NCBI RefSeq assembly: GCF_009914755.1
Contig: NC_060946.1
DNA from: the human T2T-CHM13v2.0 reference genome, Homo sapiens
Strand: one strand, 5' to 3'
DNA: 64,000 nucleotides
Shown here: piece after piece, positions 1 to 45,335 of the stretch
Numbering within the stretch: position 1 is the first letter of the stretch
How the letters are laid out: every line of letters starts with the position of its first letter
Made by a program: the position numbers and the translations under genes
The notes under the pieces: model-generated
Seen by the model: only the letters and a program-made list of their open reading frames with translations
Told to the model about the DNA's origin: nothing
The model's database searches: none

Positions 1-330
1 GTGGATGAATCTTGAAAATATTGTGCTACGTGTTATGTCAGTCATAGCAGCTCACCTATTGTGCAATTCCGTTTATAGGAAATGTCCACAATATGGAAAT
101 CTATGCATATGGGATTGATCGCACTAGGTAGTTGCTACCTAGGGCTGAGGGTCAGGGAGAGGGTTTGAGACAGAATGAGGAGTGACTAATGTCTACAGGG
201 TTTTTCTCTGGTCGGGGGTGATAAGACGTTCTACAATGGATTGCGAATTAAAATTGAATGTGCACAACCACAGGTATAGTAAAAGCCACTCAATTCATGA
301 CGTTTAATGGGGGAATCTTATGTGGCGCAC
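1..330 (+). mobile_element. Old L1M (L1MB-like) 3' end fragment
   Basis: gtggatgaatcttgaaaatattgtgcta...ttccgtttataggaaatgtcca...ggagtgactaatgtctacagggttt resembles the L1MB 3' UTR. The part from 159 on recurs inverted at ~7863-8034. Confidence 0.65.
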
Positions 331-534: not shown

Positions 535-3516
535 TCACCGGTAGTGTGGCCCGCAGGGACGCCGACCTGCTGGAGCGTCGTGCCAGCATGGGCTGTGGCA
601 TCCACGTGGGCCAGCAGGAGGTTCCCGCTGCACAGCTGTGGGGTGAGGATAGACTGGGTGGTGATATCGGCCATTACAGGGGCCTCTTCTGCTGGCAAGA
701 GTGTGACAGTAGCAAGTAGATGGACAGGCCTGTGTGTGAGGACGTAATGCAGGAGGGGCTCTTGTGCGGCTGGGTGTGGGGCCCTCACGGGAACCGTGGA
801 GAAATGGCCAGGTAACTGCGTCATGTGGGCTGGTAGATTGGCCAGGGCTTCGAACTGAAGGACGATAACGGGGAGTAGCTGTCAGGCCCTGGGAGTGCCT
901 GAGTGTAAGTGAAGATGGGTTTGGGGTCACTGAGGGATGCGTGGGAGCCATCCCTGTATAGGTACAGGTCGCAGGGAGATAGCCTCGTGAGGCCTGTGAG
1001 TGTCTAGGGTTGTCCTGGGTGCCTGGGGCTGACTGTGGCAGAAATCTGGGGAAGGCTGGAGAGAAGCTGGGAGACCCAGGAGAGTCCCTGAAGGCAGGGG
1101 GTGAAGAGGTGAAAGAAATGGGGGTGGGTTGCAGTAAGGTCCGTGAGTTTGTAGGTGATTCCTGGGTGCGGGAAGCTGACTCCAGGTGAAATCTGGAGAT
1201 GGTTGGAGAGTAGCTGAGAGAGACAGAAGAGTCCCTGAGGGTTGGGGGTGAGAACATGAGGGAGACGGGGGAGTAAGTCAGTGAAATTCGTGAGTTCGGT
1301 GGTGTATCGTGGGTGCCTGAAACTGACTCCAGCTGGAATCTAGAGAAGTTTTGAGAGTAGCTGAAAGAGACACAAGAGTCCCTGTGGGCTGAGGGCAAAG
1401 ACCTGAGAGAGACCAGGGAGGACCTCAGTGAAGTCTGTGAGTCTGTAGGTGATTCCGGAGTGTGGGAGGCTGACTCCCGCTGAAATGTGGGCGTGGTGGG
1501 AGAGTAGCTGGGACAGACAGGAGAGTCCCAGGGGGCTGGGGGTGAAGACATGAGAGAGAGTGGGGAGTAACTCAGTGAAATTGCTGAGTTGGTTGGTGAT
1601 ACCTGGGTGCCTGGAACTGACCCCCGCTGAAATCTGGGCATGGTTGGAGAGTAGCTGGGACACACAGGAGAGTCCCTGAGGGCTGGGGGTGAAGACATGA
1701 GAGAGACCGGGGAGTAACTGAGTGAAACTGGTGAGTTTGGTGGCGACTCCGGGGTGCGTGGAACTGACTCCAGCTGAAATGTGGGCGTGGTTGGAGAGTA
1801 GCTGGGACAGTCAGGAGAGTCCCTGAGGACTGGTGAAGACATGAGAGAGACTGGAGAGTAATTGAGTGAAATTGGTGAGTTTGGTGGTGATTCCTGGGTG
1901 CCTGGAACTGACTCCCGCTGAAGTGTGGGCGTGGTTGGAGAGTAGCTGGGACACACAGGAGAGTCCCTGAGGGTTGGAGATAAAGACGTGCTAGAGACTG
2001 AGGAGTAACTGAGTGAAATTGGGGAGTTTGGTGGTGATTCCGGGGTGCCTGGAACGGACTCCAGCTGAAATGTGGGCGTGGTTGGAGAGTAGCTGGGACA
2101 GACGGGAGAGTCCCTGAGGGATGGTGAAGACATGAGAGAGACTGGGGAGTAACGCAGTGAAATTGGTGAGTTTGGTGGTGATTTCTGGGTGCCTGCAACG
2201 GACTCCCGCTGAAGTGTGGGCGTGTTTGGAGAGTAGCTGGGACAGACAGGCGAGTCCCTGAGGGTTGGAGATAAAGACGTGCTGGAGACTGGGGAGTAAC
2301 TCAGTGAAAGTGGTGGGCTTGGTGGTGATCCCAGGGTTCCTGGAACTGACCCGCGCTGAAATGTGGGCGTGGTTGGAGAGTAGCTGGGACAGACTGGAGG
2401 GTCCGTAAGGGCTGGGGGTGAAGACGTGAGAGAGACTGGCGAGGATCTCACTGAGGTCTGTGAGTTTGTAGGTGTTTCTGGGGTGTGGGGTACAGACTCC
2501 CCCTGAAATCTGGGCGTAGTTGGAGAGTAGCTGGGACAGACAGGAGAGTCATGGGTGGCTGGGGGTGAGCTGCTGGATGATGGCAGTAAGAACATATGGT
2601 ACATTATTGATGAATGAGGTGACTGTGAAGAATCTCCAGAGGAGGACACGGGAGAACACAATGACATGAGTGACTGTCCTGCTTGGTTAGGAAAGGGAAA
2701 CGTAAAGTTGTGGAATTCTGTTGATGATGGATGTGAGAGTGGTGAAGCCCTGCGGGATGATGTAGAGGACTTCCACATCCCTGGTGAGGAGCTGCCCCTT
2801 GGGTCTGAGTTTCTGGGAGGGGAGAGGGAGAAGCTGGGTGAGGCAGGCATGAATCTTGAGGAGTCAGGGCTGGGGGACCGCTCATATTCTCCCGAGACCT
2901 GTGAGTCTCTGGGGGACTCCTGGGTGCATGGGGCTGACTCCCGCAGGAACCTGGGGGTGGCTGGAGAGTAACTGGGAGCCACAGGAGGGTCCCTGAGGCC
3001 TCGGGGTGAAGAGATGAAAGACACAGGGGTGGAGCACCGTGAGGCTCGTGAGTTGGTAGGTGATTCCTGGGTGTGGGGGGCAGACTCCAGCTGAAATCTG
3101 GGGTTGTTTGGAGAGTAGCTGGGAGGCACAGGAGACCCCCCGAGAGCTGGGGGTGAGATGCTGGGTGATGGCAGTAAGAACCTGTGGTATATTGTTGATG
3201 AACGTGGGGACTCTGAGGAATCCTCAGAGGAGGACACGGGAGAGCCCAATGGCTTCATTGATTGCCCATCACGGTGAGGACAGGGAAATGGGAGCTTGTG
3301 GGATTCTGGTGATGACAGAGGTGAGTGTGGTGAAGCCCTAGGGGATGGTGAATGGTAGCTCCGGATCCCTGGTGAGGAGCTTCCCCTTAAGCCTGAGTTT
3401 CTGAGAGGGGAGAGGGAGAAGCTGGGTGAGGCTCGCATGGACCTTGGGGTGTCCATGCTGGGGGACCGTTCATAAGAAGAGCCAGACAAGACCCTACTCT
3501 TCTTAGGTGCAGACAT
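535..3516 (-). CDS. Intact 993-aa Ser/Pro/Thr-rich repeat ORF encoded by ACRO1-type satellite, RNA Pol II CTD-like; expression unproven
   Basis: ATG with A at -3; 2982 nt without a stop; 49/48-aa tandem repeats; 17 YSP tripeptides, 6 of them YSPTTP; ATTAAA on the minus strand at 303-308, ~230 nt past the stop. Confidence 0.55.
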   Translation of the reverse strand: MSAPKKSRVLSGSSYERSPSMDTPRSMRASPSFSLSPLRNSGLRGSSSPGIRSYHSPSPRASPHSPLSSPESHKLPFPCPHRDGQSMKPLGSPVSSSEDSSESPRSSTIYHRFLLPSPSISPPALGGSPVPPSYSPNNPRFQLESAPHTQESPTNSRASRCSTPVSFISSPRGLRDPPVAPSYSPATPRFLRESAPCTQESPRDSQVSGEYERSPSPDSSRFMPASPSFSLSPPRNSDPRGSSSPGMWKSSTSSRRASPLSHPSSTEFHNFTFPFPNQAGQSLMSLCSPVSSSGDSSQSPHSSIMYHMFLLPSSSSSPPATHDSPVCPSYSPTTPRFQGESVPHTPETPTNSQTSVRSSPVSLTSSPPALTDPPVCPSYSPTTPTFQRGSVPGTLGSPPSPPLSLSYSPVSSTSLSPTLRDSPVCPSYSPNTPTLQRESVAGTQKSPPNSPISLRYSPVSLMSSPSLRDSPVCPSYSPTTPTFQLESVPGTPESPPNSPISLSYSSVSSTSLSPTLRDSPVCPSYSPTTPTLQRESVPGTQESPPNSPISLNYSPVSLMSSPVLRDSPDCPSYSPTTPTFQLESVPRTPESPPNSPVSLSYSPVSLMSSPPALRDSPVCPSYSPTMPRFQRGSVPGTQVSPTNSAISLSYSPLSLMSSPPAPWDSPVCPSYSPTTPTFQRESASHTPESPTDSQTSLRSSLVSLRSLPSAHRDSCVSFSYSQNFSRFQLESVSGTHDTPPNSRISLTYSPVSLMFSPPTLRDSSVSLSYSPTISRFHLESASRTQESPTNSRTLLQPTPISFTSSPPAFRDSPGSPSFSPAFPRFLPQSAPGTQDNPRHSQASRGYLPATCTYTGMAPTHPSVTPNPSSLTLRHSQGLTATPRYRPSVRSPGQSTSPHDAVTWPFLHGSREGPTPSRTRAPPALRPHTQACPSTCYCHTLASRRGPCNGRYHHPVYPHPTAVQREPPAGPRGCHSPCWHDAPAGRRPCGPHYR
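985..3190 (-). repeat. 147/144-bp tandem satellite (ACRO1-type), left copy
   Basis: The gagtagctg anchor (or a one-base variant) recurs at 1061, 1208, 1355, 1502, 1649, 1796, 1940, 2087, 2231, 2378, 2525, then 2966 and 3113. A 147-bp unit flanked by MER21 and L1MB pieces matches the ACRO1 composite as I recall it. Confidence 0.85.
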
Positions 3517-3569
3517 GATAAGGATAAGAAATAAGGATAAGTTCAGAAATAAATGTGGGGCCCAGCATG

Positions 3570-3822: not shown

Positions 3823-3833
3823 TGATTGGATTA
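3823..3833 (-). promoter_or_regulatory. DUX4-type double-homeodomain motif TAATCCAATCA
   Basis: Plus strand tgattggatta; its reverse complement is an exact match to the TAAYYYAATCA consensus. Confidence 0.65.
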
Positions 3834-4295
3834 TCTGGAGCCACACCTTGATATTCCTAACCCGAGCACCCTCATCCAACGAATTCTCCACCCAACTGGC
3901 TCCCAAGTCTCTACGTGGTTCCAGAGCAAAAGAATGTTTATACAACGCATATCTCCACCTTTTCTTCAAAGTCTTTTCGCTTACACGGAAAGACTTCTTC
4001 AACTGCCATGCATCAGGGTCAGGGGGAGGTCTTGTTACAACACAGATCTGCGGATCTCCGGGGTTTGATTGTGGCAGGGATGCTGCTGGTGTCAAAACCA
4101 CAACGTGGGAAGCACAGAACCACTAGTTGGTTTTCAGTGTTTCAGTGCATACAGTTCCTTATATATCTGGCCAAGAAATCTTGTAAGTTCTTAGATTGTC
4201 ACAAAGGTGGCGCATGAAATCAGAGCAGGAGAACAGTTTCCTACGAGGTGTATCCTGGGAAAGTTGGGGGTGACTGATGGAAAGGAGGAGTGAAG

Positions 4296-4365
4296 CTCCG
4301 CCCTTTCCGCTGCTAGGCTGCGCCCGAGGCTATTTAAACCCACCCTGGCTGGCCTGTACTCAGAT
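4296..4365 (+). promoter_or_regulatory. Pol II core promoter: GC box, TATA-like box, Inr-like site
   Basis: ctccgccc 4296-4303; tatttaaa 4331-4338; actcaga ~27-31 nt downstream; locally CpG-rich to ~4420; faces the ATG at 4678. Confidence 0.6.
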
Positions 4366-4487
4366 CTTCGCGGAGCGGATCAGCGGCCGGAGCGTTTGGC
4401 GGACTCTGCGTGGACTTGGAGCTCACAGCATCTTGCGACTTTGAAGCGGATTCAGAGGACAGGAGAGAACACTTGGGCAAGTGAATC

Positions 4488-4616
4488 TCTGTCTGTGTGT
4501 CTGTCTGTCTGTCCCATTGTTTGGTTGATTTCCATTTTCTTCAGGGGCACATACATCACACCGCACACACACAAACACACACACACACACACGCACACAC
4601 ACTCACGCACACACAC
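4488..4616 (+). repeat. (TCTG)n and (CA)n microsatellites in the putative leader/intron
   Basis: tctgtctgtgtgtctgtctgtctgtc at ~4488-4513; CA-rich run 4564-4616. Confidence 0.9.
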
Positions 4617-4677
4617 TCCTTCCTTCTGCGAGTTAGAACATTAGTAGGGGCCCCTGGGTGCTGCAGGTTTCCTAACC

Positions 4678-7658
4678 ATGTCTGCACCTAAGAACAGTAG
4701 GGTCTTGTCTGGCTCTTCTCTTGAACGGTCCCCCAGCCTGGACTCCCCATGGTCCATGCGAGCCTCACCCAGCTTCTCCCTCTCCCCTCACAGAAACTCA
4801 TGCTTAAGGGGAAGCTCCTCACCAGGGATCCGGAGCTACCATTCACCATCCCCTAGGGCTTCACCACACTCACCTCTGTCATCACCAGAATCCCACAAGC
4901 TCCCATTTCCCTGTCCTCACCGTGATGGGCAATCAATGAAGCCATTGGGCTCTCCCGTGTCCTCCTCTGAGGATTCCTCAGAGTCCCCACGTTCATCAAT
5001 AATATACCACATGTTCTGACTGCCATCACCCAGCAGCTCACCCCCAGCTCTGGGGGATCTCCTGTGTCTCCCCGCTACTCTCCAAACAACCCCAGATATC
5101 AGCTGGAGTCTGCCCCCCACACCCAGGAATCACCTACAAACTCACGATCCTCACAGTGCTCCACCCCTGTGTCTTTCATCTCTTCACCCCGAGGCCTCAG
5201 GGACCCTCCTGTGGCTCCCAGTTACTCTCCGGTCATCCCCAGGTTCCTGCGCGAGTCAGCCCCATGCACCCAGGGGTCCCCCAGAGACTCACAGGTCTCG
5301 GGAGAATATGAGCGGACCCCAGCCCTGACTCCTCAAGATTCATGTCTGCCTCACCCAGCTTCTCCCTCTCCCCTCCCAGAAACTCAGACCCAAGGGGCAG
5401 CTCCTCACCAGGGATGTGGAAGTCCTCTACATCTTCCCGCAGGGCTTCACCACTCTCACATCCATCATCAACAGAATTCCACAACTTTACTTTTCCCTTT
5501 CCTAACCAAGCAGGGCAGTCACTCAGGTCTTTGTGTTCTCCCGTGTCCTCCTCTGGAGATTCTTCACAGTCACCTCATTCATCAATAATATACCATATGT
5601 TCTTACTGCCATCATGCAGCAGCTCACACCCAGCCACCCATGACTCTCCTGTCTGTCCCAGCTACTCTCAAAATACGCCCAGATTTCAGCGGTAGTCTGT
5701 ACCACACACCCCAGAAACACCTGCAATCTCACAGACCTCAGTGAGATCCTCGCCAGTCTCTCTCACGTCTTCACCCCCAGCCCTTACGGACCCTCCAGTC
5801 TGTCCCAGCTACCCTCCAGCCACGCCAACATTTCAGCGCAGGTCAGTTCCACGAACCTGGGGATCACCACCAAGCCCACAACTGTCACTGAGTTACTCCC
5901 CAGTCTCCAACATGTCTTTATCTCCAACCCTCAGGGACTCGCCTGTCTGTCCCAGCTACTCTCCAAACACGCCCACACTTCAGCGAGAGTCCGTTGCAGG
6001 CACCCAGAAATCACCACCAAACTCACCAATTTCACTGCGTTACTACCCAGTCTCTCCCATGTCTTCACCATCCCTCAGGGACTCTCCCGTCTGTCCCAGC
6101 TACTCTCCAACCACGCCCACATTTCAGCTGGAGTCCGTTCCAAGCACCCCGGAATCACCACCAAACTCCCCAATTTCACTCAGTTACTCCTCAGTCTCTA
6201 GCACGTCTTTATCTCCAACCCTCAGGGACTCTCCTGTGTGTCCCAGCTACTCTCCAACCACGCCCACACTTCAGCGGGAGTCAGTTCCAGGCACCCAGGA
6301 ATCACCACCAAACTCACCAATTTCACTCAATTACTCTCCAGTCTCTCTCATGTCTTCACCAGCCCTCAGGGACTCTCCTGTCTGTCCCAGCTACTCTCCA
6401 ACCATGCCCACATTTCAGCTGGAGTCAGTTCCAGACAACCCGGAGTCACCACCAAACTCACCAGTTTCACTCAGTTACTCCCCCGTCTCTCTCATGTCTT
6501 CACCCCCAGCCCACAGGGACTCTCCTGTGTGTCCCAGCTACTCTCCAACCATGCCCAGATTTCAGGGGGAATCAGTTCCAGGCCCCCAGGTATCACCACC
6601 AAACTCAGCAGTTTCACTGAGTTACTCCCCACTCTCTCTCATGTCTTCACCCCCAGCCCCCTGGGACTCTCCTGTCTGTCCCAGCTACTCTCCCACCACG
6701 CCCACATTTCAGCGGGAGTCAGCCTCCCACACTCCGGAATCACCTTCAGTCTCCCAGACTTCACTGAGGTCCTCCCTGGTCTCTCTCATGTCTTTGCCCT
6801 CAGCCCACAGGTACTCTTGTGTCTCTTTCAGCTACTCTCAAAACTTCTCTAGATTCCAGCTGGAGTCAGTTTCAGGCACCCACGATACACCACCGAACTC
6901 ACGAATTTCACTGACTTACTCACCAGTCTCCCTCATGTTCTCACCCCCAACTCTCAGGGACTCTTCTGTCTCTCTCAGCTACTCTCCAACCATCTCCAGA
7001 TTTCACCTGGAGTCAGCTTCCCGCACCCAGGAATCACCTACAAAATCACGGACCTTACTGCAACCCTTCCCCATTTCTTTCACCTCTTCACCCCCTGCCT
7101 TCAGAGACTCTCCTGGGTCTCCCAGCTTCTCTCCAGCCTTCCCCAGATTTCTGCCACAGTCAGCCCCAGGCACCCAGGACAACCCTAGACACTCACAGGC
7201 CTCACGAGACTATCTCCCTATGACCTGTACCTATACAGGGATGGCTCCCACGCATCCCTCAGTGACCCCAAACCCATCTCCACTTACACTCAGGCACTCC
7301 CAGGGCCTGACAGCTACTCCCCGTTATTGTCCTTCGGTTCGAAGCCCTGGTCAATCTACCAGCCCACATGACGCAGTTACCTGGCCATTTCTCCACGGTT
7401 CCCGTGAGGGCCCCACACCCAGCCGCACAAGAGCCCCTCCTGCATTCCGTCCTCACACGCAGGCCTGTCCATCTACTTGCTACTGTCACACTCTTGCCAG
7501 CAGAAAAGGCCCCTTTTAATGGCCGATATCACCACCCAGTCTATCCTCCCCCCACAGCTGTGCAGCGGGAACCTCCTGCTGGCCCACGTGGATGCCACAG
7601 CCCATGCTGGCATGACGCTCCAGCAGGTCGGCGTCCCTGCTTGCCACACTACCGGTGA
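4678..7658 (+). pseudogene. Disrupted copy of the 993-aa ORF (right arm)
   Basis: Collinear with 535-3516 but has TTA>TGA (5017-5019), -1 indel ~5055, -1 indel ~5318, GAG>TAG (5693-5695) and +1 indel ~7514. The ORF-track pieces 4678-5019, 5064-5588, 5342-5695, 5741-7519 and 7368-7658 tile it. Confidence 0.85.
5005..7210 (+). repeat. 147/144-bp tandem satellite (ACRO1-type), right copy
   Basis: Repeated cccagctactctccaacc units mirroring the left copy. Confidence 0.85.
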
Positions 7659-8034
7659 TATGGCTAGCGTGATCCTCGTTCCTTGCAATGACACTGTTGA
7701 TGTGAACCCCAGTTTCACATCTGTCATTTGTAAATAGGACCATTTTCCCTTTTCGCTCTCCCTTCCATTCACAGGGCTTTTCATTCTCTCTGTTTCTGCC
7801 TCCATTTCAGATATTTACTCACCTTTTTCTCTCTCACTATGTCTGCCGTGTTCTCCATGAGAGTGCGCCACATAAGATTCCCCCATTAAAAGTCATGAAT
7901 TGAGTGGCTTTTAGTATACCTGTGGTTGTGCACATTCAATTTTAATTCGCAATCCATTGTAGAACGTCTTATCACCCCCGACCAGAGAAAATCCCTGTAG
8001 ACATTAGTCACTCATCATTCTGTCTCAAACCCTC

Positions 8035-9721
8035 AGGGCCTGATGTGAAGGCACTTTCGTCTGTAGGGGACACATGACCTGCTTCTCTGTGGCGCGGTTT
8101 TTTTTTTTTTTTCCTGCCATGGATGCCTCACCTCTCCTTCCTCAAATCTCACCTTCCCCTCATGGCCCTTCTGTCTTCCTTGGGGTACACCTAGCCGCCC
8201 GAGGTGCCCTGTGACCTCGAACCACGGACTCCAGGGTCCCTGAGGCCCAGCGCAAGGCCTGATGGGCAGACACTTTCGTCCGTGTGGAGGTCCCAGTCCC
8301 CGCTTCTCCGTGGCTGGGTTTTTATTTTCTCTGCCCCAGGTGCCTCACCTTCCTCTCTTGTGCCTTCTGCATGCTTTGGGGTACCCCTAGCGGCCCGAGG
8401 CACACCCTGGGCTCGAACCATGGAATCCAGGTTCCACTGGGCCAAGCGGATTGGCTGATGGGAAGACACGTTCTTCCTCGGGGACCCAGGCTCTTCTTCT
8501 CTGTGGCGTTTTTTTTTTCTTTTCCCCATGTGCCTCACTTTCCCGTCATGGGCTTTCTGCCCGCCTTTAGGTACCCCTAGCCGGCCCGAGGCGCAGTGTT
8601 GTTTTGAGCCAGGGATGCTAGGGTCACCGTGACCCAGTGCAGGACTTATGGGTAGGGACGTTCGTCCATGGGGGACCCAGGCCCCACTTCTGGAAGCGCA
8701 GTTTTTTATTTTCTTCTCTGCCACCGGTGTCTCACCTTTCCCTCATGGGCCTTCTGTCTTGGGGTACCCCTAGCAGTCCCAGGGGCAAGCTGGGCTCGAG
8801 CCTGGGATTCCAGGGTCCCCAGGGCGCAATGCAAGCGCTGATGGGAAGACAGTTTCTTCTGTGGGGGACCCAGGCCCCGCTTATCCGCGGCACGGTTGTT
8901 GTTGTTTTTTTTTCTCTGCCCCACGTGCGTCACCTTCCCCTCATGGGCCCTCTGCCTGCTTTTGTGTACCCCTAGCGGCCTGAAGCGCACCCTGGTCTCG
9001 AACAAGGAATGCCAGGTTCCCCTGGGCCCAGCGCAAGGGCTGATGGGAAGACACTTTCGTCCATTGGGGACCCAGGCTCCGCTTCTCCGTGGTGCAGTTT
9101 TTTTTTTTCTGCCACAGGTGCCTCACCTCTCCTTCCTCAAACCTCAACTGCCCCTCATGGGATTTCTGACCGCCTTGTGGTACCCCTAGCAGGCCCGAGG
9201 TGCACCCGGGGCTCGAACCAGGATCTCCAGCGTCCACAGGGCCCAGCGCAGGGACTGATGGGAAGGCATTTTCATCCTTGGGGGACCCAGGCCCAGGTTC
9301 TCCTAGGCGCGGCTTGTTTTCTTTTTTTTTTTTCTGCCACAGGTTCCTCACCTCTCCTCCCTCAAACGTCAACTTCCCATCATGGGCTTTCTGCTCGACT
9401 TGGGGTACCCCTAGCTGCCCAAGGCGCTCCCTGGACTCGAACCATGGATGCCAGAGTCGCCGGGGCCTAGCGCAGGGGCTGATGGGAAGGTACCTTCATC
9501 CGTGGGTACCCAGGCCCCGCTTCTCAAAGCTGCGGTTTTTTTCTCCGCCCCAGGTGCCTCACCTTCCCCTCACTGGCCCTCTGCCTGCTTTGGGGTACCA
9601 CGCGCAGGCCCGAGGCGCTCCCGGGTCTCCAATCAGGGTCGCCAGGTTCTCGGGGCTAGCGCAGAGGCTGATGGGAAGGCACTTTCATCAGTGGGGACCC
9701 AGGTCCGGCTTCTCCGAGGTG

Positions 9722-9778
<57 letters not shown>

Positions 9779-11314
9779 TTTTTTTTTCTGACACAGGTGA
9801 CTCACCTCTCCTCCCTTAAATCTCGCCTTCCTCTCATGGGCTTTCTGGCTTCCTTAGGGTACCCTAGCATGCCGGAGTCTCTTCTGGTCCTTGAACTAGG
9901 GTCGCCAGAGTCCAGGGGGCCCAGCGCAGGGGCTGATGAGAAGGCACTTTCGTCCGTGGGAGACCCAGGTCCCGCTTCTCTTCCGCACGGTTTTTTTTTT
10001 TTCTGTCGCAGGTGCCTCACCTCTCTTCCCTCAAACCTCACCTTCCCCTCATGGGCCTTCTGCCCGCTTTGGGGTACACCTAGCGGGCCCGAGGTGCACC
10101 CAGGCCTATAACCAGGGTCGCCTGGGTCCACGGGGCCCAGTGCAGGGACTGATGGGAAGGCACTTTCTTTCCATGGGAGACCCAGGCCCCACTTCTCCGT
10201 GGCGTGGTTTCTTTTTCTTTTCTGTCACAAGTGTCTCACCTCTCCTCCCTCACAGCTCACCTTCCTCTCATGGGCTTTCCACCGCCTTGGGGTACCCCTA
10301 GTGGCCCGAGGCTCTCCCTGAGCTCGAACCAGGGACTCTAGATTCCCCGGGGCCCAGTGCAGGGCCTGATGGGAAGGCACTTTCATCCGTGGGGTACCCA
10401 GGCCACACCTTTCCGCGGCACGGGTTTCTTTTTTTTCTTTTTCTGTGACAGGTGCCTCACCTCTCCTCCCTCAAAACTCACCTTCCCCTCACGGGCTTTG
10501 TGTCCCCAAAGCCCCCCTTGGGGTGCACTTGGCGGCCGAGGCACACCCTGAGCTTGAACGAGGGACACCAGGGTCCCTGGGTCCCAGTTCAGGGACTGAT
10601 GGGAAGACACTTTCGTCTGTGGGGCACCCAGGCCGTGCTTCTCCGCGGCGAAGTTTTTCTTTTTTTCTCTGCCCCAGGTGCCTCACCTTCCCCTTAGGGG
10701 CTTTCTGCCCACCTTGGGGTACCCCTACTGTCCCGAGGCGTACCCCAGGGTCAAACCAGGGACGCCAGGGTCCCCAGGGCCCAGGGAAGGGGCTGATGGG
10801 ATGGCACTTTCATCCGTGGGGGGCCCAGGCACTGCTTCTCGGCTGAGCGTTTTTTTTTCTCTGCCTCAGGTGCCTCACCTTCCCCTCATGGACCTTTTGT
10901 TCGCTTTGTGGTACCCCAAGCTGTCCTGAGGCGCACCCTGGGCTTGAACCAGGGTCGCCAGGGTCCACCAGGCCCAGCATAGGGCCTAATGGGAAGGCAC
11001 TTTCATCCGTGGGGAACCCAGGTCCCGCTTCTCTGATACGCGGTCCTCTTTTTTTTTTTTTCTGCCCCTGCTGCCTCACCTCTCCTCCCACAAACTTCAA
11101 CTTCCACTCATGGGCCTTCTGTCCAAGTTGGGGTACCCCTAGTCGCCTGAGGCACACCCTGGGCGTGAACCAGGGATGCCAGGGTCCCTGGGGCCCAGCG
11201 CAAGGGCTGATGGGAAAAAACTTTCGTCCCTGGATGACCCAGACACCGCTTCGCGGCGCATTTTTTTTTCTTCTTTGCCCCAGGTGTCTCACCTTCCTCT
11301 CATGGGCCTTCTGC
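8035..11314. repeat. GC-rich ~190-225-bp tandem satellite, ~16 units (gamma-satellite/GSATII-like)
   Basis: The ctgatgggaaggcactttc...gggacccaggccccgcttctc...poly-T...caggtgcctcacct...ggggtacccctag motif recurs about every 200 bp; one unit has a (TA)n expansion at ~9726-9774. Family name is tentative. Confidence 0.8.
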
Positions 11315-12079
11315 CTCTCTGCGCCTGCGCCGGCGCTGTGGGCCTCTCTGCGCCTGCGCCGGCACTGTGGGCCTCTCTGCGCCTTTCGCCAGCGCTGTGG
11401 GCCTCTCTGGACCTGCGCTGGCGCTGTGCTCCTTTGCGAGGGCGGAGCTGCGTTCTTCCCAGCACAGACAAGGAAAGCATCGCCAGGGCGGAGCTGAGTT
11501 CTCCTCTGCACAGACTTCAGAGATACAGCGAAGGCGGAGCAGTGTTCTCCTCAGCACAGACCCAGGCGGGCCGGGGGCACCGCGAGGGCGGAGCCGCGTT
11601 CTGCTCAGCACAGACCCGGGGGACACCGCTAAGGCAGAGCAGCCTTCTCCTCAGCACAGACCTTTGGGGCACTGCCTCGCTTTGGGACAACTCGGGACCG
11701 CATAGACGGTGAATAAAATCCTTCCCTTTTGCAGCCCTGAATAATCAGGGTCAGAGACCAGTTAGAAGGGCTCAGTGTGGAAAAGGGAAACCAAAAGCCC
11801 CTCTGAATCCTGCCCACCGAGGTTCTCCCCAGCCAAGCCGAGGCGGCCGCAGTGCGAGATCCACACCGCAGCCTCGGAAGACAAATGCAGCATTCCTAAT
11901 GCAGACATGACACCCAAAATATGACACCCCCATTGCTCATGTAACAAGCACCTGTAATGCTAATGCACTGCCTCAATACAAAAATATTAATATAAGATCC
12001 GCAATCCCCTTGCTGCCATGCAGTCCTAAGACAGAGATCATAATAATCAACATTGGCATAGTACAAACGTAGTAACGAA
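11315..12079 (+). repeat. TAR1 telomere-associated repeat with 29-bp CpG-rich repeats
   Basis: Four copies of ctctctgcgcctgcgccggcgctgtgggc-like 29-mers; five gggcggagc...cagcacagac units; then the typical distal subtelomeric sequence leading into TTAGGG. Confidence 0.9.
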
Positions 12080-12388
12080 CCTAGGGTTAAGGTTGGTGTT
12101 AGGGTTAGGGGTTAGGGGTTAAGTTTAGGGTTGGGGTTGGAGATAGGGGTTGGAGTCAGAGTTAAGAGTTAAGAGTCAACGTTTAGAGTTAGAGGTTAGG
12201 AGAGGTTAGGGGTTAGGGATAAGGGGTTAGGGTTGGATTAGTGTGAGGGTGAGGGTTGTGGTTAGGGGTTAGGCTTAGGGTTTATGGTTAAGGGTTAGGG
12301 TTAGGGGTTAGGGTTAGGGTCAGGGGTTAGGGGTCAGGGTCAGGGGTTAGGGATCAGGGTCAGGGGTCAGGGTCAGGTTCAGGGGTCC
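12080..12388 (+). repeat. Degenerate interstitial telomeric tract (TTAGGG/TTAGGGG/TCAGGG/TGAGGG variants)
   Basis: Direct reading; G-rich strand on plus. Confidence 0.95.
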
Positions 12389-36427: not shown

Positions 36428-39400
36428 GAGTGTACATGCCCCTGTGATATTGTTCCTAATATGCAGGTTGGGAGAGGATATTATACTCAATATTGCAGGA
36501 AGTGTCGACCACCCTGAATATTGCTTTTAATATCCAGGGAGAGAGGGTGATATTACTCCCAATATCATCCTCTCCCCCCACACCCTGCATAGTACAAGCA
36601 ATATCAAAGGGGGTCTGTGCAACACGTGCAATATTGGGAGTAATATCCTCCCCCAACATGGATATTAGAAACAGTATCACAAGGGGTTGTACACCACCTG
36701 TGATATTGTGGAGTACTATCATTTTCTTTCCCCATGGATATGTAGAACAATATCACAAAGGTGGTGTACAACCCCTGCTATATTGGGAGTAATACTGTAC
36801 TTTCCCCACCTAGATATTAGGAACAATATCACGGGGGGTTATACACCACTGCAACATTGGGAGTAATATCATCCTTTCCCTCCCTGGATATTAGGAACAA
36901 TACCTCATGGGTGTGTACACCCTGTTCCATATTGGGATTAATATTTTCTCCCTTGCTGGACATAAGGAAAAATATAACGGGGGGTATACACTCCTTATGA
37001 TATTGCCAGTAATATTATAGACTCCCCAAAGGGATATTAGAAAGAGTATCAGAGAGGGGTGTACATCCCCTGCTATATTGGGAATAATATTCTTTCTTTC
37101 CCTGGATATTAGTAATAATATCACAAAGGGGTTGTATACCCCCCGTGACATTTTAATTAATATCATCTTCCCCACTGAATATTAGGAACAAATTCCCAGG
37201 GGATTGTACACCACCTGCAATATGGACGGCTATATCATTGTCTCTCCCCCGAATATAAGGAACAATATCACAAGGGGGTTGTACAACCCCTGTGATATTG
37301 GGAGTAACTTTATACCCTTTCCACATGGATATTAGGAACAATATCACAGGGTGGGTGTACACCCACTGCGATATTGGGAGTAATATCATCCTCTACCCCC
37401 TGGGTATTATGAACAATATCATGGGGAGGGGGTGTATGCCCTCTGTGATATTGGGAGTAATATCATCCTGTCCCCTCTGGATATTAGGAAGGATATCACA
37501 GCGGGGCTGTACCTTTCTGCACTATTGGGAGTGGTATCACCCTCTCCCCCTATGGATATTAGGAACAATATCACAAAGGGGGTGTACACATCCTGCGATA
37601 TTGAGAGTAATATTGTCCACTCTTCCCTGGAATATTAGGAACAATATCACAGGCAGAGTGTACACCCCCTGCTATTTTACCTGTAATATTATTCTCTCCC
37701 AACCTGGATATTAGGAATAATATAACAGGAGGGTTGTACACCACTTGTGATATTGGGAGTAATATCATTCTCTCCCCCCATGGATATTGAGAACAATATC
37801 ACAGGGGCAGCTTACACCTCCTGCGCCATTTAGAGTAATATCATCCTTTTCCCCCATGGATATTAGGAACGATATCGCATGGGAAGTGTACACCCCCGCC
37901 ATATTGGGAGTAATATTTTCTCCCTTGCTAGATATTAGGAACAATATCACGGGAATGCACACACCCTGCGATATTGCCAGTAATATCGTAGTCTCCTCCC
38001 AGGATATTAGGAACAATATCACAAGGGGGGTGTACATGCCCTGTGATATTGGAAGTAATATCATCGACTCCCCCAACGGATATTAGTAACAATAGCAGAA
38101 GGGGTGTACACCCCTTGCAATATTTATAGTACTATCATCCTATACCCCCTGGATATTAGGAACAATACCACGGGGAGGTGTATACCCACTGTGATATTGG
38201 GAGTAATTTCATCCTCTACCCCTTGGATGTTAGGAGCAGTATCACAAGGGGGATGTGCACCCTCTGTGATATTAAAAATAATACCATTCTCTCCTTCTGT
38301 GGATACTAGGAATAATATCACAGTGCTGGTGTACACCCTTTACACTATTTGGAGCAATATCACCCTCTCCCCCACTTGATATTAGAGACAATATCATGGG
38401 GGGTGGCGTGTAACACCCTGCACTGTTGGGAGTACTATCATCTAGTCTTCCCCTGGATATAAGAAACAGTATCACAGAAGGGGTCTACACCTCCTGAGAT
38501 TTTGGGAGTAATATCATCCTCTCCAAATCTGGATATTAAGGACAGTATAATGGGGTGTGGGGAGTAATATGGTGGGAGTAATACAATCCTCCTCCCCACT
38601 TGATATTAGGAACAATATCGCAAAACGTGTGTACACCCACTGTGACATTTGGAGTAATATCAACATTTCCCCACCTGGTATCACGGGGAGAGTGTACAGT
38701 CCTTACGATATTGGAAGTATCATTGTCTCTCACTCTCGATATTAGGAAAAATAGCACAGGGTGTGTATACACTTCCTGTGATTTTGGGAAGAACATCATA
38801 CCCTTCTGTCTTTGATATTAGGAACAATATCACAGAGGGGGTGTACAACTTCTGTGATATTATAATATTCTTTCTTCCTATGGATATTAGGAATGATATC
38901 CCGGTGGGCTTGTTGTACACCCCCTGTGATACGGACAGTAATATCATTGTCCTTCCCCCTACATATTAGAAACAATATCACAAGGGTGGTATACACCCCC
39001 TGGATATTAAAAACTATCACAGGGGGGCTGTACAACCTCTTTGATACTGTGAGTAATACCATTGTCTCCCCTCCTGGGTATTAATAACAATATCATAGGG
39101 TGGGTGTACACCCCCTGCAATATTGGGAATAATATCATCCTGTCTTCCCCGGGATATTAGGAACGGTATCACAGGTGGGGTTTACACCCCCTGCAATTTT
39201 GTCAGTAATATTACTTCTGGATGTTATTGAATATATCACAGTGGGGGTGTACACCCCCTGTGATATGGGGAGTAATAGCATCCTCTTTCCCACTGGATAC
39301 TACAAACAATATCGCAGATTGTGTACAACCTCCTGTGATATTGTTCACAATATTTAGGGAAGGAGAGGATGATATTACTCCACATATCGCAGGGAGTGTT

Positions 39401-40274
39401 ACATCCCCTGTAATATTGTTCATAATATTTAGAAGACGACAGGATGATATTACTCCCAATATAGTAGGAAGTATACACTCCCCTGTGATACTGTTCATAA
39501 TTTTTAGGGGATTAGAGGATGATATTACTTCCAATATCACAGGGAGTGTACACTGGTGATATTGTTTATAATTTTCAGTGGATTAGAAGATATTATTCCG
39601 AATATCACAGGGGTTGTACATCCCCAAGTGATATTGTTAATATTCAGTGGGAAAGAGGATGATATTACTCCCCATATCACGGGGGATGTAAACCCGTTTG
39701 TGGTATTGTCACTTACATCTGGGGGGGAGAGGATGATATTACTCTGCATATCATAGAGGGTGCACACGGCTGTAATGTTGTCCATAATAACATCCAGAGG
39801 GGAAGAGAATATTATTCCCATGTTTCAGAAGGTGTACACACCCCTGTGATAGTCTCTGTAACATTTAGGGAAGAAGGGGATGATACTACTCCAGATATTG
39901 CAGGGGGTGTACACCCCCCTGTGATACTGTTCATAACGTTTAGGGGAAAGAGGATGATATTACTCCCCATATCGAAGGGATTGTACATCTCCCTATATAT
40001 TGTCCATAACATCCAGGACAGGAGAGGATATTACTACTCCCCATATCACAGGGGGTGGACAACCCCCTCTAAATATGTCTAACATCCAGGCGGGAACAGG
40101 AGGATATTTTTCCCCATAACCCAGAGAAAGTAAACCTCCTGCGATATTGTCCATAACATCCAGTGGGGGGAGGATGATATCACTCCCCATATTGCAGGGG
40201 GTGCACACTCCACTCTGATATTGGCCGTAATATCCGGGGGGGTGAAGTATGAAGTCACTACACATATCGCAGGG
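36428..40274. repeat. SATR1/SATR2-type ~73-bp satellite, block 1
   Basis: Tandem ggatattaggaacaatatcacagggggtgtacaccccctgtgatattgggagtaatatcatcctctccccc units; orientation switches near 36560 and 39330. Confidence 0.9.
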
Positions 40275-41238
40275 ATTATTAGTATCAGATTGTTTGAAGG
40301 GCTCACAGTAAGGGTAGTAGTAGGGCGAGTTCTAACTCAAATAGGGGAAATGTGATGGCTACTAGAAAGAATTTTATGGAGAAGGGAATGTGGGCAGAGG
40401 ATAGAGGGTCAAATCTGCATTCATAAGGGCTAGATTTTTCTATATATATTTATTTTATACATATATATATTTTTTTCTCTCTCTCTACTTATATATATTA
40501 AGTTGTGGGAGCCAAAATGTAATAATTATTAGTAACAGGGCAAATAGGGTGTTGATTACTAGGGTTAATGTTAGGTGAATTACTGTTTTTCGGATGCTAT
40601 CAAAACTTTGGAAATCATGGTACTATTTATACTAAAAGAGTAAGATCCTCATCAATAAGTAGAAACATACAAGAATAGTCATACTACATCTACAAAGTGT
40701 CGATATCAGGCAGCGGCTTCAAAGGCAAAGTGATGACTAGATGTAAAGTGGTATTTTAATTGGCGGAGAAGGCAGACTGAGGAATGTTGACCCAATAATG
40801 ACGTGAATTCTGTGAAAGCCTGTAGCTATAAAAAATGTTGAGCCATAAATACCATCAGAAATAGCAAAGGGAGCTTTGAAGTATTCTGAGACTTGTAGGA
40901 GGGTGAAGTAAATATCTAATATAATTGTAACAGGTAGTGCTTGGATTGTATGTTTTTGATTATTTTTTGTTAGGCTGTGATGGGCTCAAGTAATTGAAAC
41001 TCCTGATGCAAGTAATACAGATGGATTCAGGAGAGGTACTTCCAGGGGGTCAAGGGGAGAAATACCTGTTGGGGGTCAATGCCCTCCTAATTCTGGAGTA
41101 GGGGCTAGGCTAGAATGGTAGAATGCTCAAAAGAATCCAGCGAAGAGGAATATTTCTGAGATAATAAATAGGACTGTCCCATATTGGAGGCCTTTTTGAA
41201 CAGTTGTTGTATGGTGACCCTGAAATGTACTTTCTCAG
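40275..41238 (-). pseudogene. NUMT piece 1: 3' part of MT-CO3, tRNA-Gly, most of MT-ND3
   Basis: Reverse complement matches mtDNA: ND3 ~40275-40580 (ttctccataaaattctttctagtagc), tRNA-Gly 40581-40641 (actcttttagtataaatagtacc), COX3 40642-41238; (TA)n-rich expansion at 40441-40498. Confidence 0.92.
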
Positions 41239-41254
41239 ATACAGAACACCCTTG

Positions 41255-42597
41255 GTCAATTGAATACAGATCAATCACTTTAAGTAAGCTAAGTCCTTAC
41301 TAAATTGATGAGACTTAAACCCATGAAAACTTAACAGCTAAACTCCCTAGTCAACTGGTTTGAATCTACTTCTCCAGCCGCTGGGGGAAAAAGGGTGAGA
41401 GAAGCAGGATTGAAGCTGCTTCTTTGAATTTACAATTCAACATGAAAATCACCTTGGGACTGGTAAAAACAGGCGTTGACCTCTGTTTTTAGATGTACAG
41501 TCTAATGCCCTACTCAGTCATTTTACCCTTTTTTCTCACTTCATTTATGTTGGCTGACAGTTGACTATTCTCAACCAACCATAAAGATATCGGGACATTA
41601 TATTTATTATTTGGCACATGAGCAGGGATAGTCAGTACAGCTTTAAGCCTTATTCGAGCTGAACTCTACTAGATGATCAAATTTATGTCATTGTTATAGC
41701 CTATGCATTTGTCATAATTTTCTTTATAGTAATACTATAATTGGAGGTCTTGGCAACTGATTAGTCCCCCGATAATTGGCGCCCCCGATATAGCATTTCT
41801 CTGCATAAATAATATGAGCTTCTGACTCCTCCCACCCTCCTTCCTATTATTACTTGCATCCACTATAGTAGAAGCCGGCACTGGAACCGGCTGAACAGTC
41901 TCTCCTCCCTTAGCAAGAAACCTAACACATGCAGGCGCCTCTGTAGATTTCACTATCTTTTCACTCCACTTGACAGGTGTTTCTTCTACTTGAGGGGCTA
42001 TTAACTTTATTACCACAATTGTTAATATAAAACCCCCAGCCATGTCCCAATATCACACACCCCTCTTCATCTGATTAGTCCTAATTACAGCAGTTCTTCT
42101 ACTCCTTTGTCTCCGAGTCCTAGCCGCCAGCATCACTATATTGTTAACTGACTGCAATCTTAATACTATTTTTTTCTACCTGGCTGGCGGAGGTGATCCT
42201 GTCTTATTTCAGCATTTATTCAGATTCTTTGGTCACCCTGAAATCTACATCCTCATCCCACTGGGCTTTGGGATAATTTCCCACGTCGTAACATACTATT
42301 CTGGAAAAAAAAGAACCATTCAGGTATATGGGCCTAGTGTGAGCTATAGGATCAGTTGGATCCTTACAGTTTATTGTATGGGCCCACCGTATATTTACGG
42401 TAGGGATAGATGTGGATACATGAGCCTGCTTCACCTCTGCTATTATAATTATTGCTATTCCTACTAGCGTCAAAGTTTTTAGCTGACTAGCTAGCTACAC
42501 TTCACGGCGGTAATATCAAATGATCCCCCGCAATGCTGTGAGCCCGGGGATTTATTTTCCTTTTTACAGTAGGAGGCCTAACCAGCATTGTATTGGC
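41255..42597 (+). pseudogene. NUMT piece 2: tRNA-Ala(part)/Asn, OL, tRNA-Cys/Tyr and 5' ~1 kb of MT-CO1
   Basis: WANCY-region text (taagctaagtccttact...cttctccagccgc...gaagctgcttctttgaatt); COX1 ATG at 41547; peptide [26 protein letters not shown]; multiple indels. Confidence 0.95.
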
Positions 42598-42654
42598 TGA
42601 GGCTTATATTATGGTTCATTCATACATTTAGAAACCTGAAAGTTTCTAAATAAG

Positions 42655-43190
42655 TTGTAAAAAAGTTGTAAAAACACCCCAGCTGAAATAACTACGAAGG
42701 TGCCTTTAATATTCTGAAGACAAAATAGCTAAGATCCAAACTGGGAGTAGATACCCCGCTATGCTTAACTCTAAACTCGAATAGTTAGATCAACAAAACT
42801 GTTGGCCAGAACACTACAAGCAACAGCTTAAAACTCAAAGGACTTGGCGGTGCTTTATAGCCCTCTAAAGGAGCCTGTTCTATAATCGATAAACCGCAAT
42901 TTACCTCACCACCTCTTACCCAGCCTAAATACCTCCATCTTCAGCAAACGCTGGAAAGGCCGCAGAGTAAGCACAAGTATCTACATAAAAACTTTAGGTC
43001 AAGGTGTAGCCCATGAGGTGGCAAGAAATGGGAACGTTTTCTACATCCAGAAAAATGTCGCGACAACCGTTATGAAATCTAAGGGCTCAAGGAGGATTTA
43101 GCAATAAATTGAGAGCAGAGTGTTTAATTGAATAAGGCCATGAAGCATGCACACACCGCCCGTCACCCTCCTCAAATATATTCTAGAAAT
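42655..43190 (+). pseudogene. NUMT piece 3: internal mitochondrial 12S rRNA fragment
   Basis: aaactgggagtagatacccc; aaactcaaaggacttggcggtgcttta; cacacaccgcccgtcaccctcctc. Confidence 0.95.
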
Positions 43191-43196
43191 TCATTC

Positions 43197-45335
<2,139 letters not shown>

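What the first reader, a model, noticed from the sequence alone, without database searches (positions are those of the whole stretch)
535..3516. A satellite that stays in frame: 993-codon ORF with every unit-length change a multiple of three
Seen: spacings between monomer anchors are 147,147,147,147,147,144,147,144,147,147, then 441 and 147. Even the most diverged terminal units keep frame and lack stops, and the frame runs through non-repetitive N- and C-terminal regions. The ATG has A at -3 and an ATTAAA lies ~230 nt past the stop. Inference: the unit evolved under protein-coding constraint at least ancestrally, so this repeat family may be a multicopy gene family hidden by repeat masking.
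Basis: partly seen in the sequence, partly recalled or inferred. Interest (0 to 1): 0.85.

Follow-up and report, generated by a model that had tools for sequence, protein, structure and literature searches.

The report
Human "satellite" is an amplified gene
The human ACRO repeat, filed as a gene-free satellite, holds a 993-codon open reading frame in about 230 near-identical copies with matching predicted proteins in marmoset and rabbit, so it is likely an old mammalian gene amplified into large arrays that would make a disordered protein in the early embryo; no peptide has been shown.

Summary
Observation confirmed: 535-3516 (-) is a stop-free 993-codon frame with the stated spacings. The 147-bp unit is the known ACRO1 satellite inside the ~6.3-kb ACRO composite, which the papers I read treat as gene-free and primate-specific. 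The evidence points to a gene. About 230 copies lie in CHM13; 30 of 49 fetched loci keep a full frame (12 of 17 in the chr3 array). A colinear 832-aa marmoset protein, a rabbit protein and a one-unit form from an unnamed record share a non-repetitive C-terminal motif CPS[TS]CYCH..A.R...NG. Stops are depleted: 5 against 14 expected among 43 copies; 0 against 13-15 between human and marmoset. Standard copies have TATA, a short 5' intron, ATTAAA and a DUX4-type site; ACRO1 RNA is reported to peak at 4 cells and to be DUX4-induced. Against: dN/dS is about 1 outside the motif, the 144-bp units stem from one indel, there is no translation evidence, and this copy has lost its own promoter at an inversion junction. 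Best reading: a D4Z4-like macrosatellite gene family encoding a disordered Ser/Pro/Thr repeat protein, selected to stay open rather than to keep its residues.

The parts
535..3516 (-). 993-codon ORF, intact copy of the ACRO gene; 232 Ser, 179 Pro, 78 Thr, 6 Lys; polar N-terminus with no signal-like stretch
3139..3474 (-). N-terminal block 1 (aa 15-126), ending in IYH[MR]FLLP; colinear in marmoset and distant homologues
2845..3138 (-). Two outlying 147-bp units (aa 127-224; the second runs into block 2)
2551..2886 (-). N-terminal block 2 (aa 211-322), an old duplicate of block 1, present in marmoset too
1012..2550 (-). ACRO1 array: ten full and one partial 147/144-bp units, each 49/48 aa (DSPVCPSYSPTTP...LSYSPVS...LR)
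   Evidence: identity as ACRO1 from period, unit size, chromosomal spread and the Warburton primers
670..726 (-). Conserved Cys/His motif CPSTCYCHTLASRRGPCNG (aa 931-949)
303..308 (-). ATTAAA, predicted polyadenylation signal 227 nt past the stop
3525..3538 (.). Head-to-head inversion junction; removes the minus copy's own acceptor, intron and promoter
3823..3833 (-). DUX4-type site TAATCCAATCA, the only match in the window; about 850 nt upstream of the ATG in standard copies
   Evidence: consensus recalled
4298..4338 (+). Predicted promoter of the inverted copy: GC box 4298, TATTTAAA 4331, CpG o/e 0.8 over 4280-4480
   Evidence: inferred
4477..4666 (+). Predicted 5'-UTR intron of about 190 nt with (TCTG)n/(CA)n; donor G|GCAAGT (G|GTAAGT in the chr19 copies), acceptor CTGCAG|G 11 nt before the ATG
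   Evidence: inferred, no cDNA seen
4678..7658 (+). Inverted paralogue, 96.5% identical, broken by 2 stops and 3 frameshifts (first stop codon 114); ATTAAA at 7885

Best explanation
The ACRO unit is likely an old mammalian protein-coding gene whose 49-codon repeat expanded in primates and whose whole ~6.3-kb unit is present in about 230 human copies, and it would be switched on briefly by DUX4 in the cleavage embryo to make a disordered Ser/Pro/Thr repeat protein with one conserved Cys/His binding motif. Shown: the open frame, the copy number, the homologues, the motif, the shortage of stops and frameshifts, dN/dS near 1 elsewhere. Inferred from sequence: a non-coding first exon, a ~190-nt intron, one coding exon, poly(A) site and DUX4 site. 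From papers: ACRO1 RNA peaks at 4 cells and is DUX4-induced. Predicted, untested: translation; the C-terminal motif as the docking (possibly metal-binding) element, which is why the frame must stay open to its end; the repeats as a length-variable, multivalent substrate for proline-directed kinases (99 S/T-P sites) whose dose is set by copy number. A Pol II CTD-decoy role for the PSYSPTTP units is a sub-hypothesis at about 0.2. This window's intact copy is probably a promoterless edge copy. Odds: gene-derived 0.9; frame still under selection in the human lineage 0.65.
For: Marmoset P0004 (832 aa) is colinear from the same MSA start to the C-terminus, 72-75% identical to the human copies over N+C parts. 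Rabbit P0007 and unnamed P0010 match the non-repetitive C-terminal 144 aa far above 500 shuffles (167 vs max 95; 317 vs max 109); P0010 is a one-unit form colinear from MSAP to the last residues. The 23-aa motif window is better kept than the rest: rabbit 15/23 vs 32/98 (P=0.001), titi 21/23 vs 71/115 (P=0.002), P0010 16/23 vs 53/116 (P=0.02). Neutral simulation at the human-marmoset distance gives 13-15 stops, never 0 in 300 runs; observed 0. Trunk from the oldest human paralogue to the arrays: 0 stops vs 4.3 expected (P=0.014), while side copies decayed (L031-L033, window + copy). Among 43 array-type loci: 5 stop alleles vs 14.1 expected (P=0.005), 3 frameshifts vs about 9 (P=0.02). Old paralogues carry 6-7 indels per 1.1 kb upstream, almost all frame-breaking lengths, against 0-2 in the 1.5 kb of non-repeat ORF. 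30 of 49 loci full-length, 34 of 49 reach the motif; 12 of 17 in the chr3 array. DUX4-type site in 33 of 35 loci, the one change among 7 lineages falling at a degenerate position. Expression statements: PMC6545021, PMC8990217, PMC5832720.
Against: dN/dS 0.76-0.89 among units, 0.81-0.98 for the duplicated block, 0.92-1.23 between paralogues over N+C; among 43 copies missense 258 vs 248 expected. The chr3 array alone shows no significant stop deficit (1 vs 2.8, P=0.23), and 30 of the 43 loci were picked as closest to an intact query. Motif excess in marmoset alone is not significant (P=0.07). The marmoset protein has 64 aa in the shifted frame: a compensated frameshift pair or a gene-model artefact; I could not see its DNA. 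Database proteins are predictions; many human-like hits are frameshifted contaminant fragments. Rabbit P0007 lacks a clear N-terminal block (1 of 500 shuffles equals it). Lower ORF than flank divergence affects synonymous sites equally, so it is not protein selection. Boots 2020 found no stable ACRO1 transcript in HeLa and showed that the RNA blocks Pol II elongation in cis. AlphaFold gives no fold for the C-terminal 146 aa (pLDDT 52.9, 7 sequences). A DUX4 11-mer is expected 0.45 times per window by chance.
Confidence: 0.62

Rival explanations
1. A fossil gene: the frame was selected in early primates, lost its function in apes, and an intact copy was multiplied passively by exchange between acrocentric short arms.
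For: dN/dS about 1; 19 of 49 loci are not full-length; copies are only 1-3% apart, so most have had little time to break; no protein evidence; the oldest dispersed copies are all broken.
Against: No stop or frameshift on the whole trunk to the arrays (0 vs 4.3 stops); stop deficit among young copies; the 358-aa chr2 copy L034 is open and has an open near-identical counterpart P0008 (8 differences by my count).
Confidence: 0.24
2. The working product is the RNA (a Pol II-binding, self-silencing or nucleolus-associated transcript); the open frame is kept only because translation stabilises the RNA or truncated products are harmful.
For: Boots 2020: ACRO1 RNA binds Pol II and represses in cis, the reverse complement does not. 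ORF DNA diverges about half as fast as flanks at synonymous and non-synonymous sites alike.
Against: A Cys/His peptide motif is kept to rabbit; gene conversion over the transcribed part would explain the even slowdown (inference).
Confidence: 0.1
3. A non-coding satellite whose C/T-rich strand happens to lack stops in one frame.
For: Strong strand skew; only 3.3-3.8% of point mutations make a stop; tandem copies of a stop-free 147-mer are open trivially.
Against: Frame runs through 480 non-array codons, starts at the same Met and keeps a motif in distant mammals; shuffles and neutral simulations fail.
Confidence: 0.03

Closest known systems
ACRO1 satellite / ACRO composite (ACRE; Warburton 2008 PMC2588610, Boots 2020 PMC7714431, Hoyt bioRxiv 2021.07.12.451456, bioRxiv 2025.12.22.696095)
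   Same: It is this element: 147-bp unit, ~6-kb higher-order unit, arrays on chr3, chr4 and all five acrocentrics.
   Different: The passages read class it among megasatellites without genes and as primate-specific; none names an ORF. Boots translated one 49-aa consensus unit and read it as an RNA aptamer. Here the array is the middle of a ~1000-codon frame with non-primate homologues.
D4Z4/DUX4 and other gene-bearing macrosatellites (PMC13558733, passages; USP17L/RS447, CT47, TAF11L recalled)
   Same: Multi-kb tandem unit with one gene, ORF in one exon plus non-coding exon(s), cleavage-stage expression reported, concerted and birth-and-death evolution.
   Different: No known domain; the coding region itself holds a second tandem repeat of variable number (open frames up to 1387 codons); spread over many chromosomes; selection shows on frame openness, not on residues.
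RNA polymerase II RPB1 C-terminal domain (YSPTSPS heptads)
   Same: S/P/T/Y-rich disorder; best units match 7-8 of 10 CTD positions; databases auto-name the marmoset and rabbit proteins RPB1.
   Different: Period 49, not 7; one or two YSP per unit, never tandem heptads; YSP count 17 human, 5 marmoset, 0 rabbit; no polymerase domain in Pfam. The name is an annotation artefact.

Membership tests
ACRO1 / ACRO composite | 147-bp unit in a 1.3-2.4-kb array | tested here: met
   period 147, 10.3 copies, 1057-2568; definition
ACRO1 / ACRO composite | ~6-kb higher-order unit arrayed on acrocentric short arms, chr3 and chr4 | tested here: met
   6.3-6.6-kb spacing on C3, C4, C13, C14, C15, C21, C22; both Warburton FISH primers read in the window sequence near 3160 and 3834
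ACRO1 / ACRO composite | Dfam match to ACRO1, L1PA10, MER21B, L1MB8 | not testable with these tools
   no repeat library held
Gene-bearing macrosatellite (D4Z4/DUX4 kind) | one long ORF per multi-kb tandem unit, open in many copies | tested here: met
Gene-bearing macrosatellite (D4Z4/DUX4 kind) | ORF conserved across species beyond neutral expectation | tested here: met
   protein level only
Gene-bearing macrosatellite (D4Z4/DUX4 kind) | purifying selection on residues (dN/dS well below 1) | tested here: not met
   about 1 except the C-terminal motif
Gene-bearing macrosatellite (D4Z4/DUX4 kind) | spliced mRNA and protein detected | not testable with these tools
   no reads or proteomes; papers report repeat-level RNA only
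RPB1 / Pol II CTD | tandem YSPTSPS heptads | tested here: not met
RPB1 / Pol II CTD | polymerase catalytic domains | tested here: not met
   0 Pfam families
Known Cys/His metal-binding domain | profile or structure match of the C-terminal motif | tested here: not met
   Pfam 0 at E<=10; PDB one chance hit E=3.4; model unfolded

The most novel reading that the evidence does not exclude
ACRO encodes a translated, DUX4-induced embryonic protein from well over 100 intact copies, which would make it one of the highest-copy protein-coding genes in the human genome; its PSYSPTTP repeats act as a dosage-tunable Pol II CTD mimic that competes for CTD kinases, phosphatases or readers during genome activation, and it is re-expressed in FSHD muscle and DUX4-positive tumours.
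Probability: 0.2. Interest if true: 0.95.

Novelty: new variant of a known kind. Interest (0 to 1): 0.8.

Why it matters
ACRO is described as the repeat most specific to great-ape acrocentric short arms, rivalling rDNA, with unexplained 4-cell expression (bioRxiv 2025.12.22.696095), on arms said to hold mostly non-coding or pseudogene annotation. If it is a gene, an unannotated mammalian family with about 230 human copies sits beside the rDNA, varies in copy and repeat number, and gives a concrete, testable product for a known DUX4-induced 'satellite' RNA in embryos and FSHD. It also shows a mode of selection (keep the frame and one short motif, let the rest drift) that dN/dS-based annotation misses.

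Tried and rejected
Pfam: no family for the human, marmoset or rabbit protein. PDB sequence search: one chance hit. AlphaFold of the C-terminal 146 aa: low confidence, so no fold search was run. ESM Atlas: P0007 gave two leads under 0.9 (a 993-aa 'putative extensin-like' cluster of 70 members, score 0.79, probably these same predicted ORFs but unverified; a 429-aa 'RPB1-like' cluster, 0.76); P0010 gave none. True RPB1 homology rejected (see membership). P0005 ('Plasmodium ovale') and most hits are human-derived, often frameshifted fragments and were not counted as homologues; P0055 did not beat shuffles and was dropped. Ancestral locus: chr2q21 copy L031 is basal and the chr19 pair next (short branches, gene conversion possible); a C2H2 array lies beyond the distal chr19 copy but the stretch tried on chr2 showed none, so a shared duplicon is not established. 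Search with P0010 showed no separate paralogue among 114 scored of 1510 candidates. A bacterial promoter scan was not informative. Literature: whole-word ACRO1 gave 38 papers, 32 listed, none with an ORF claim in title or abstract start; five peptide strings gave 0 papers; searches gave nothing further; the marmoset T2T preprint does not use the word ACRO. Subscription papers and bioRxiv supplements were not visible and may hold an annotation.

Full report
Observation. The minus strand holds an ATG-to-TGA frame of 993 codons at 535-3516. Base shuffles do not approach this length (mean 190, maximum 523 codons in 300). The two 144-bp units share one 3-bp deletion, so there is only one independent indel among the ten core units; a tree of those units carries about 160 substitutions, for which 5-6 stops would be expected, and has none. 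The N-terminal part contains an old duplicated block.

Identity. Period, unit size and distribution identify the array as ACRO1 in the ~6.3-kb ACRO composite. A 27-nt start pattern matches 226 places and a 29-nt motif pattern 232 places in CHM13, with up to 3 mismatches and 0 for the reversed controls. The window holds a head-to-head pair: the intact minus copy and a 96.5% identical plus copy with 2 stops and 3 frameshifts. The minus copy loses similarity to a standard unit 8 nt upstream of its ATG, so the promoter-like region between the two belongs to the broken copy. This particular copy is therefore probably not expressed in the standard way; the family is the finding.

Copies. Of 49 fetched loci 30 are full-length and 34 reach the C-terminal motif (the window's plus copy is not among the 49; 30 loci were the closest to an intact query). 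In the chr3 array, 12 of the 17 anchor-bearing copies are intact at 945, 993 or 1090 aa. In one search, 86 of 114 scored places (my count of the table, best scorers only) lie in stop-free frames of 940 codons or more, up to 1387. Dispersed older copies (87-96% identical) stop at codons 746, 688, 83 and 271; one, L034, is an open 358-aa in-frame deletion form with an open counterpart P0008.

Homologues. Marmoset P0004 aligns from the same start to the C-terminus; 64 of its residues are in the shifted frame, which I cannot resolve without DNA. Titi monkey P0009 has the C-terminal part. Rabbit P0007 has its own expanded, diverged units and the motif ACPSSCYCHSVARRRSTCNG. P0010, an unnamed record at 46% identity, has the N-terminal block, a single unit and the C-terminus in order. 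These matches exceed all 500 shuffles for the non-repetitive C-terminus, and P0043, P0057 and P0033 do so for the N-terminus. The leaders of P0010, P0033 and P0057 read like a translated (CA)n tract before the Met, as the human intron does, which suggests a shared gene structure (inference). This contradicts the statement that no non-primate carries a homologue (PMC7714431). A rabbit-primate split of roughly 85-90 million years is recalled.

Selection. For the frame: 0 stops between human and marmoset against 13-15 simulated at the matching amino-acid identity (0 of 300 runs stop-free); 0 on the trunk from the oldest paralogue against 4.3 (P=0.014); 5 stop alleles against 14.1 among 43 array-type loci (P=0.005; L046 skipped, L031-L035 left out), 7 against 16.7 with the window's plus copy; frameshifts 3 against about 9 by a rough flank rate (P=0.02; 6 against 11, P=0.08, with the plus copy); chr3 alone 1 against 2.8, not significant. 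For residues: dN/dS is 0.76-0.98 within the ORF's repeats and duplicated block and 0.92-1.23 between paralogues. Only the motif stands out. The ORF diverges about half as fast as its flanks in three old paralogues, but equally at synonymous sites; gene conversion or an RNA-level constraint would explain that.

Gene model (inferred). Standard copies show a GC box, TATTTAAA about 350 nt upstream, a donor G|GTAAGT in the chr19 copies that reads G|GCAAGT in the arrays, an intron of about 190 nt, an acceptor 11 nt before the ATG, a leader without upstream ATG, one coding exon and ATTAAA. A DUX4-type 11-mer (consensus recalled) lies about 850 nt upstream in 33 of 35 loci; Warburton's primer description puts it at the edge of the MER21 fragment, so it may be LTR-derived. 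Papers: ACRO1 RNA peaks at 4 cells (PMC6545021, passages); DUX4 activates ACRO1 (PMC8990217, one introductory sentence citing others); ACRO1 is hypomethylated in spermatogonial stem cells and sperm and rises in the early embryo (PMC5832720, passage) and is among the least methylated satellites in FSHD-mutant cells (bioRxiv 2025.12.22.696056, passages). None of these passages gives strand, splicing or translation.

Mechanism. I commit to a DUX4-switched, copy-amplified burst of a disordered protein. The pattern of selection says that the product must be translated through to a short C-terminal motif while the repeats may drift in sequence and number. That fits a docking motif at the end of a long phosphorylatable spacer (99 S/T-P sites). 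CTD mimicry is attractive for the ape-expanded units (7 of 10 positions; 23 of 49 identities in Boots 2020) but YSP is poorly kept in marmoset and absent in rabbit, so I hold it at about 0.2. No structure or family supports a specific function.

Prior art. Read as passages or sections: PMC7714431 (abstract, sections 7 and 9, passages), PMC2588610, bioRxiv 2021.07.12.451456, bioRxiv 2025.12.22.696095, PMC13558733, PMC6581058, PMC3836709, bioRxiv 2026.03.25.713844 (term search only, no hits). They describe ACRO as a satellite or gene-free megasatellite. Seven library searches found no description of the ORF or motif; automatic gene models exist in marmoset and rabbit under the name RPB1. Subscription papers and bioRxiv supplements were not seen.

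Verdict. Translation in human is the open question. Interest 0.8.

Noticed in passing
window 8148-11033: GC-rich tandem array of 193-217-bp units, 71-77% matched, directly after the plus copy; resembles gamma-satellite II (recalled, not tested).
   Followed up: no
window 11313-12387: 29/46/100-bp GC-rich repeats followed by about 300 bp of degenerate (TTAGGG)n: looks like a relic subtelomere (TAR1-like, recalled) inside the short arm.
   Followed up: no
window 36599-45333: Long 74-76-bp satellite blocks interrupted by the annotated MT-CO3/MT-CO1 pseudogenes.
   Followed up: no
L034:1434-2510 (G000:C2:161739833): Solitary copy with an in-frame 1905-nt deletion, an open 358-aa frame, promoter elements and AATAAA; its layout is close to the one-unit ancestral form, and P0008 is an open counterpart. 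A uniquely mappable test case.
   Followed up: partly
L032, L033 (G000:C19:47232567 and 47284459): Convergent pair of old copies 52 kb apart with a perfect GT donor; a broken C2H2 zinc-finger array lies about 13 kb beyond the distal one (L044). Candidate older locus.
   Followed up: partly
G000:C1, C4, C13, C14: Head-to-head inverted ACRO pairs recur at several loci with different spacing.
   Followed up: no
P0005: A 'Plasmodium ovale' hypothetical protein whose first ~300 aa are the human ACRO frame: database contamination of the kind described in PMC6581058.
   Followed up: partly
L031-L033, codon 978: The three oldest human paralogues share TGA at codon 978, near where the marmoset protein ends; the last 15 residues look dispensable.
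   Followed up: no
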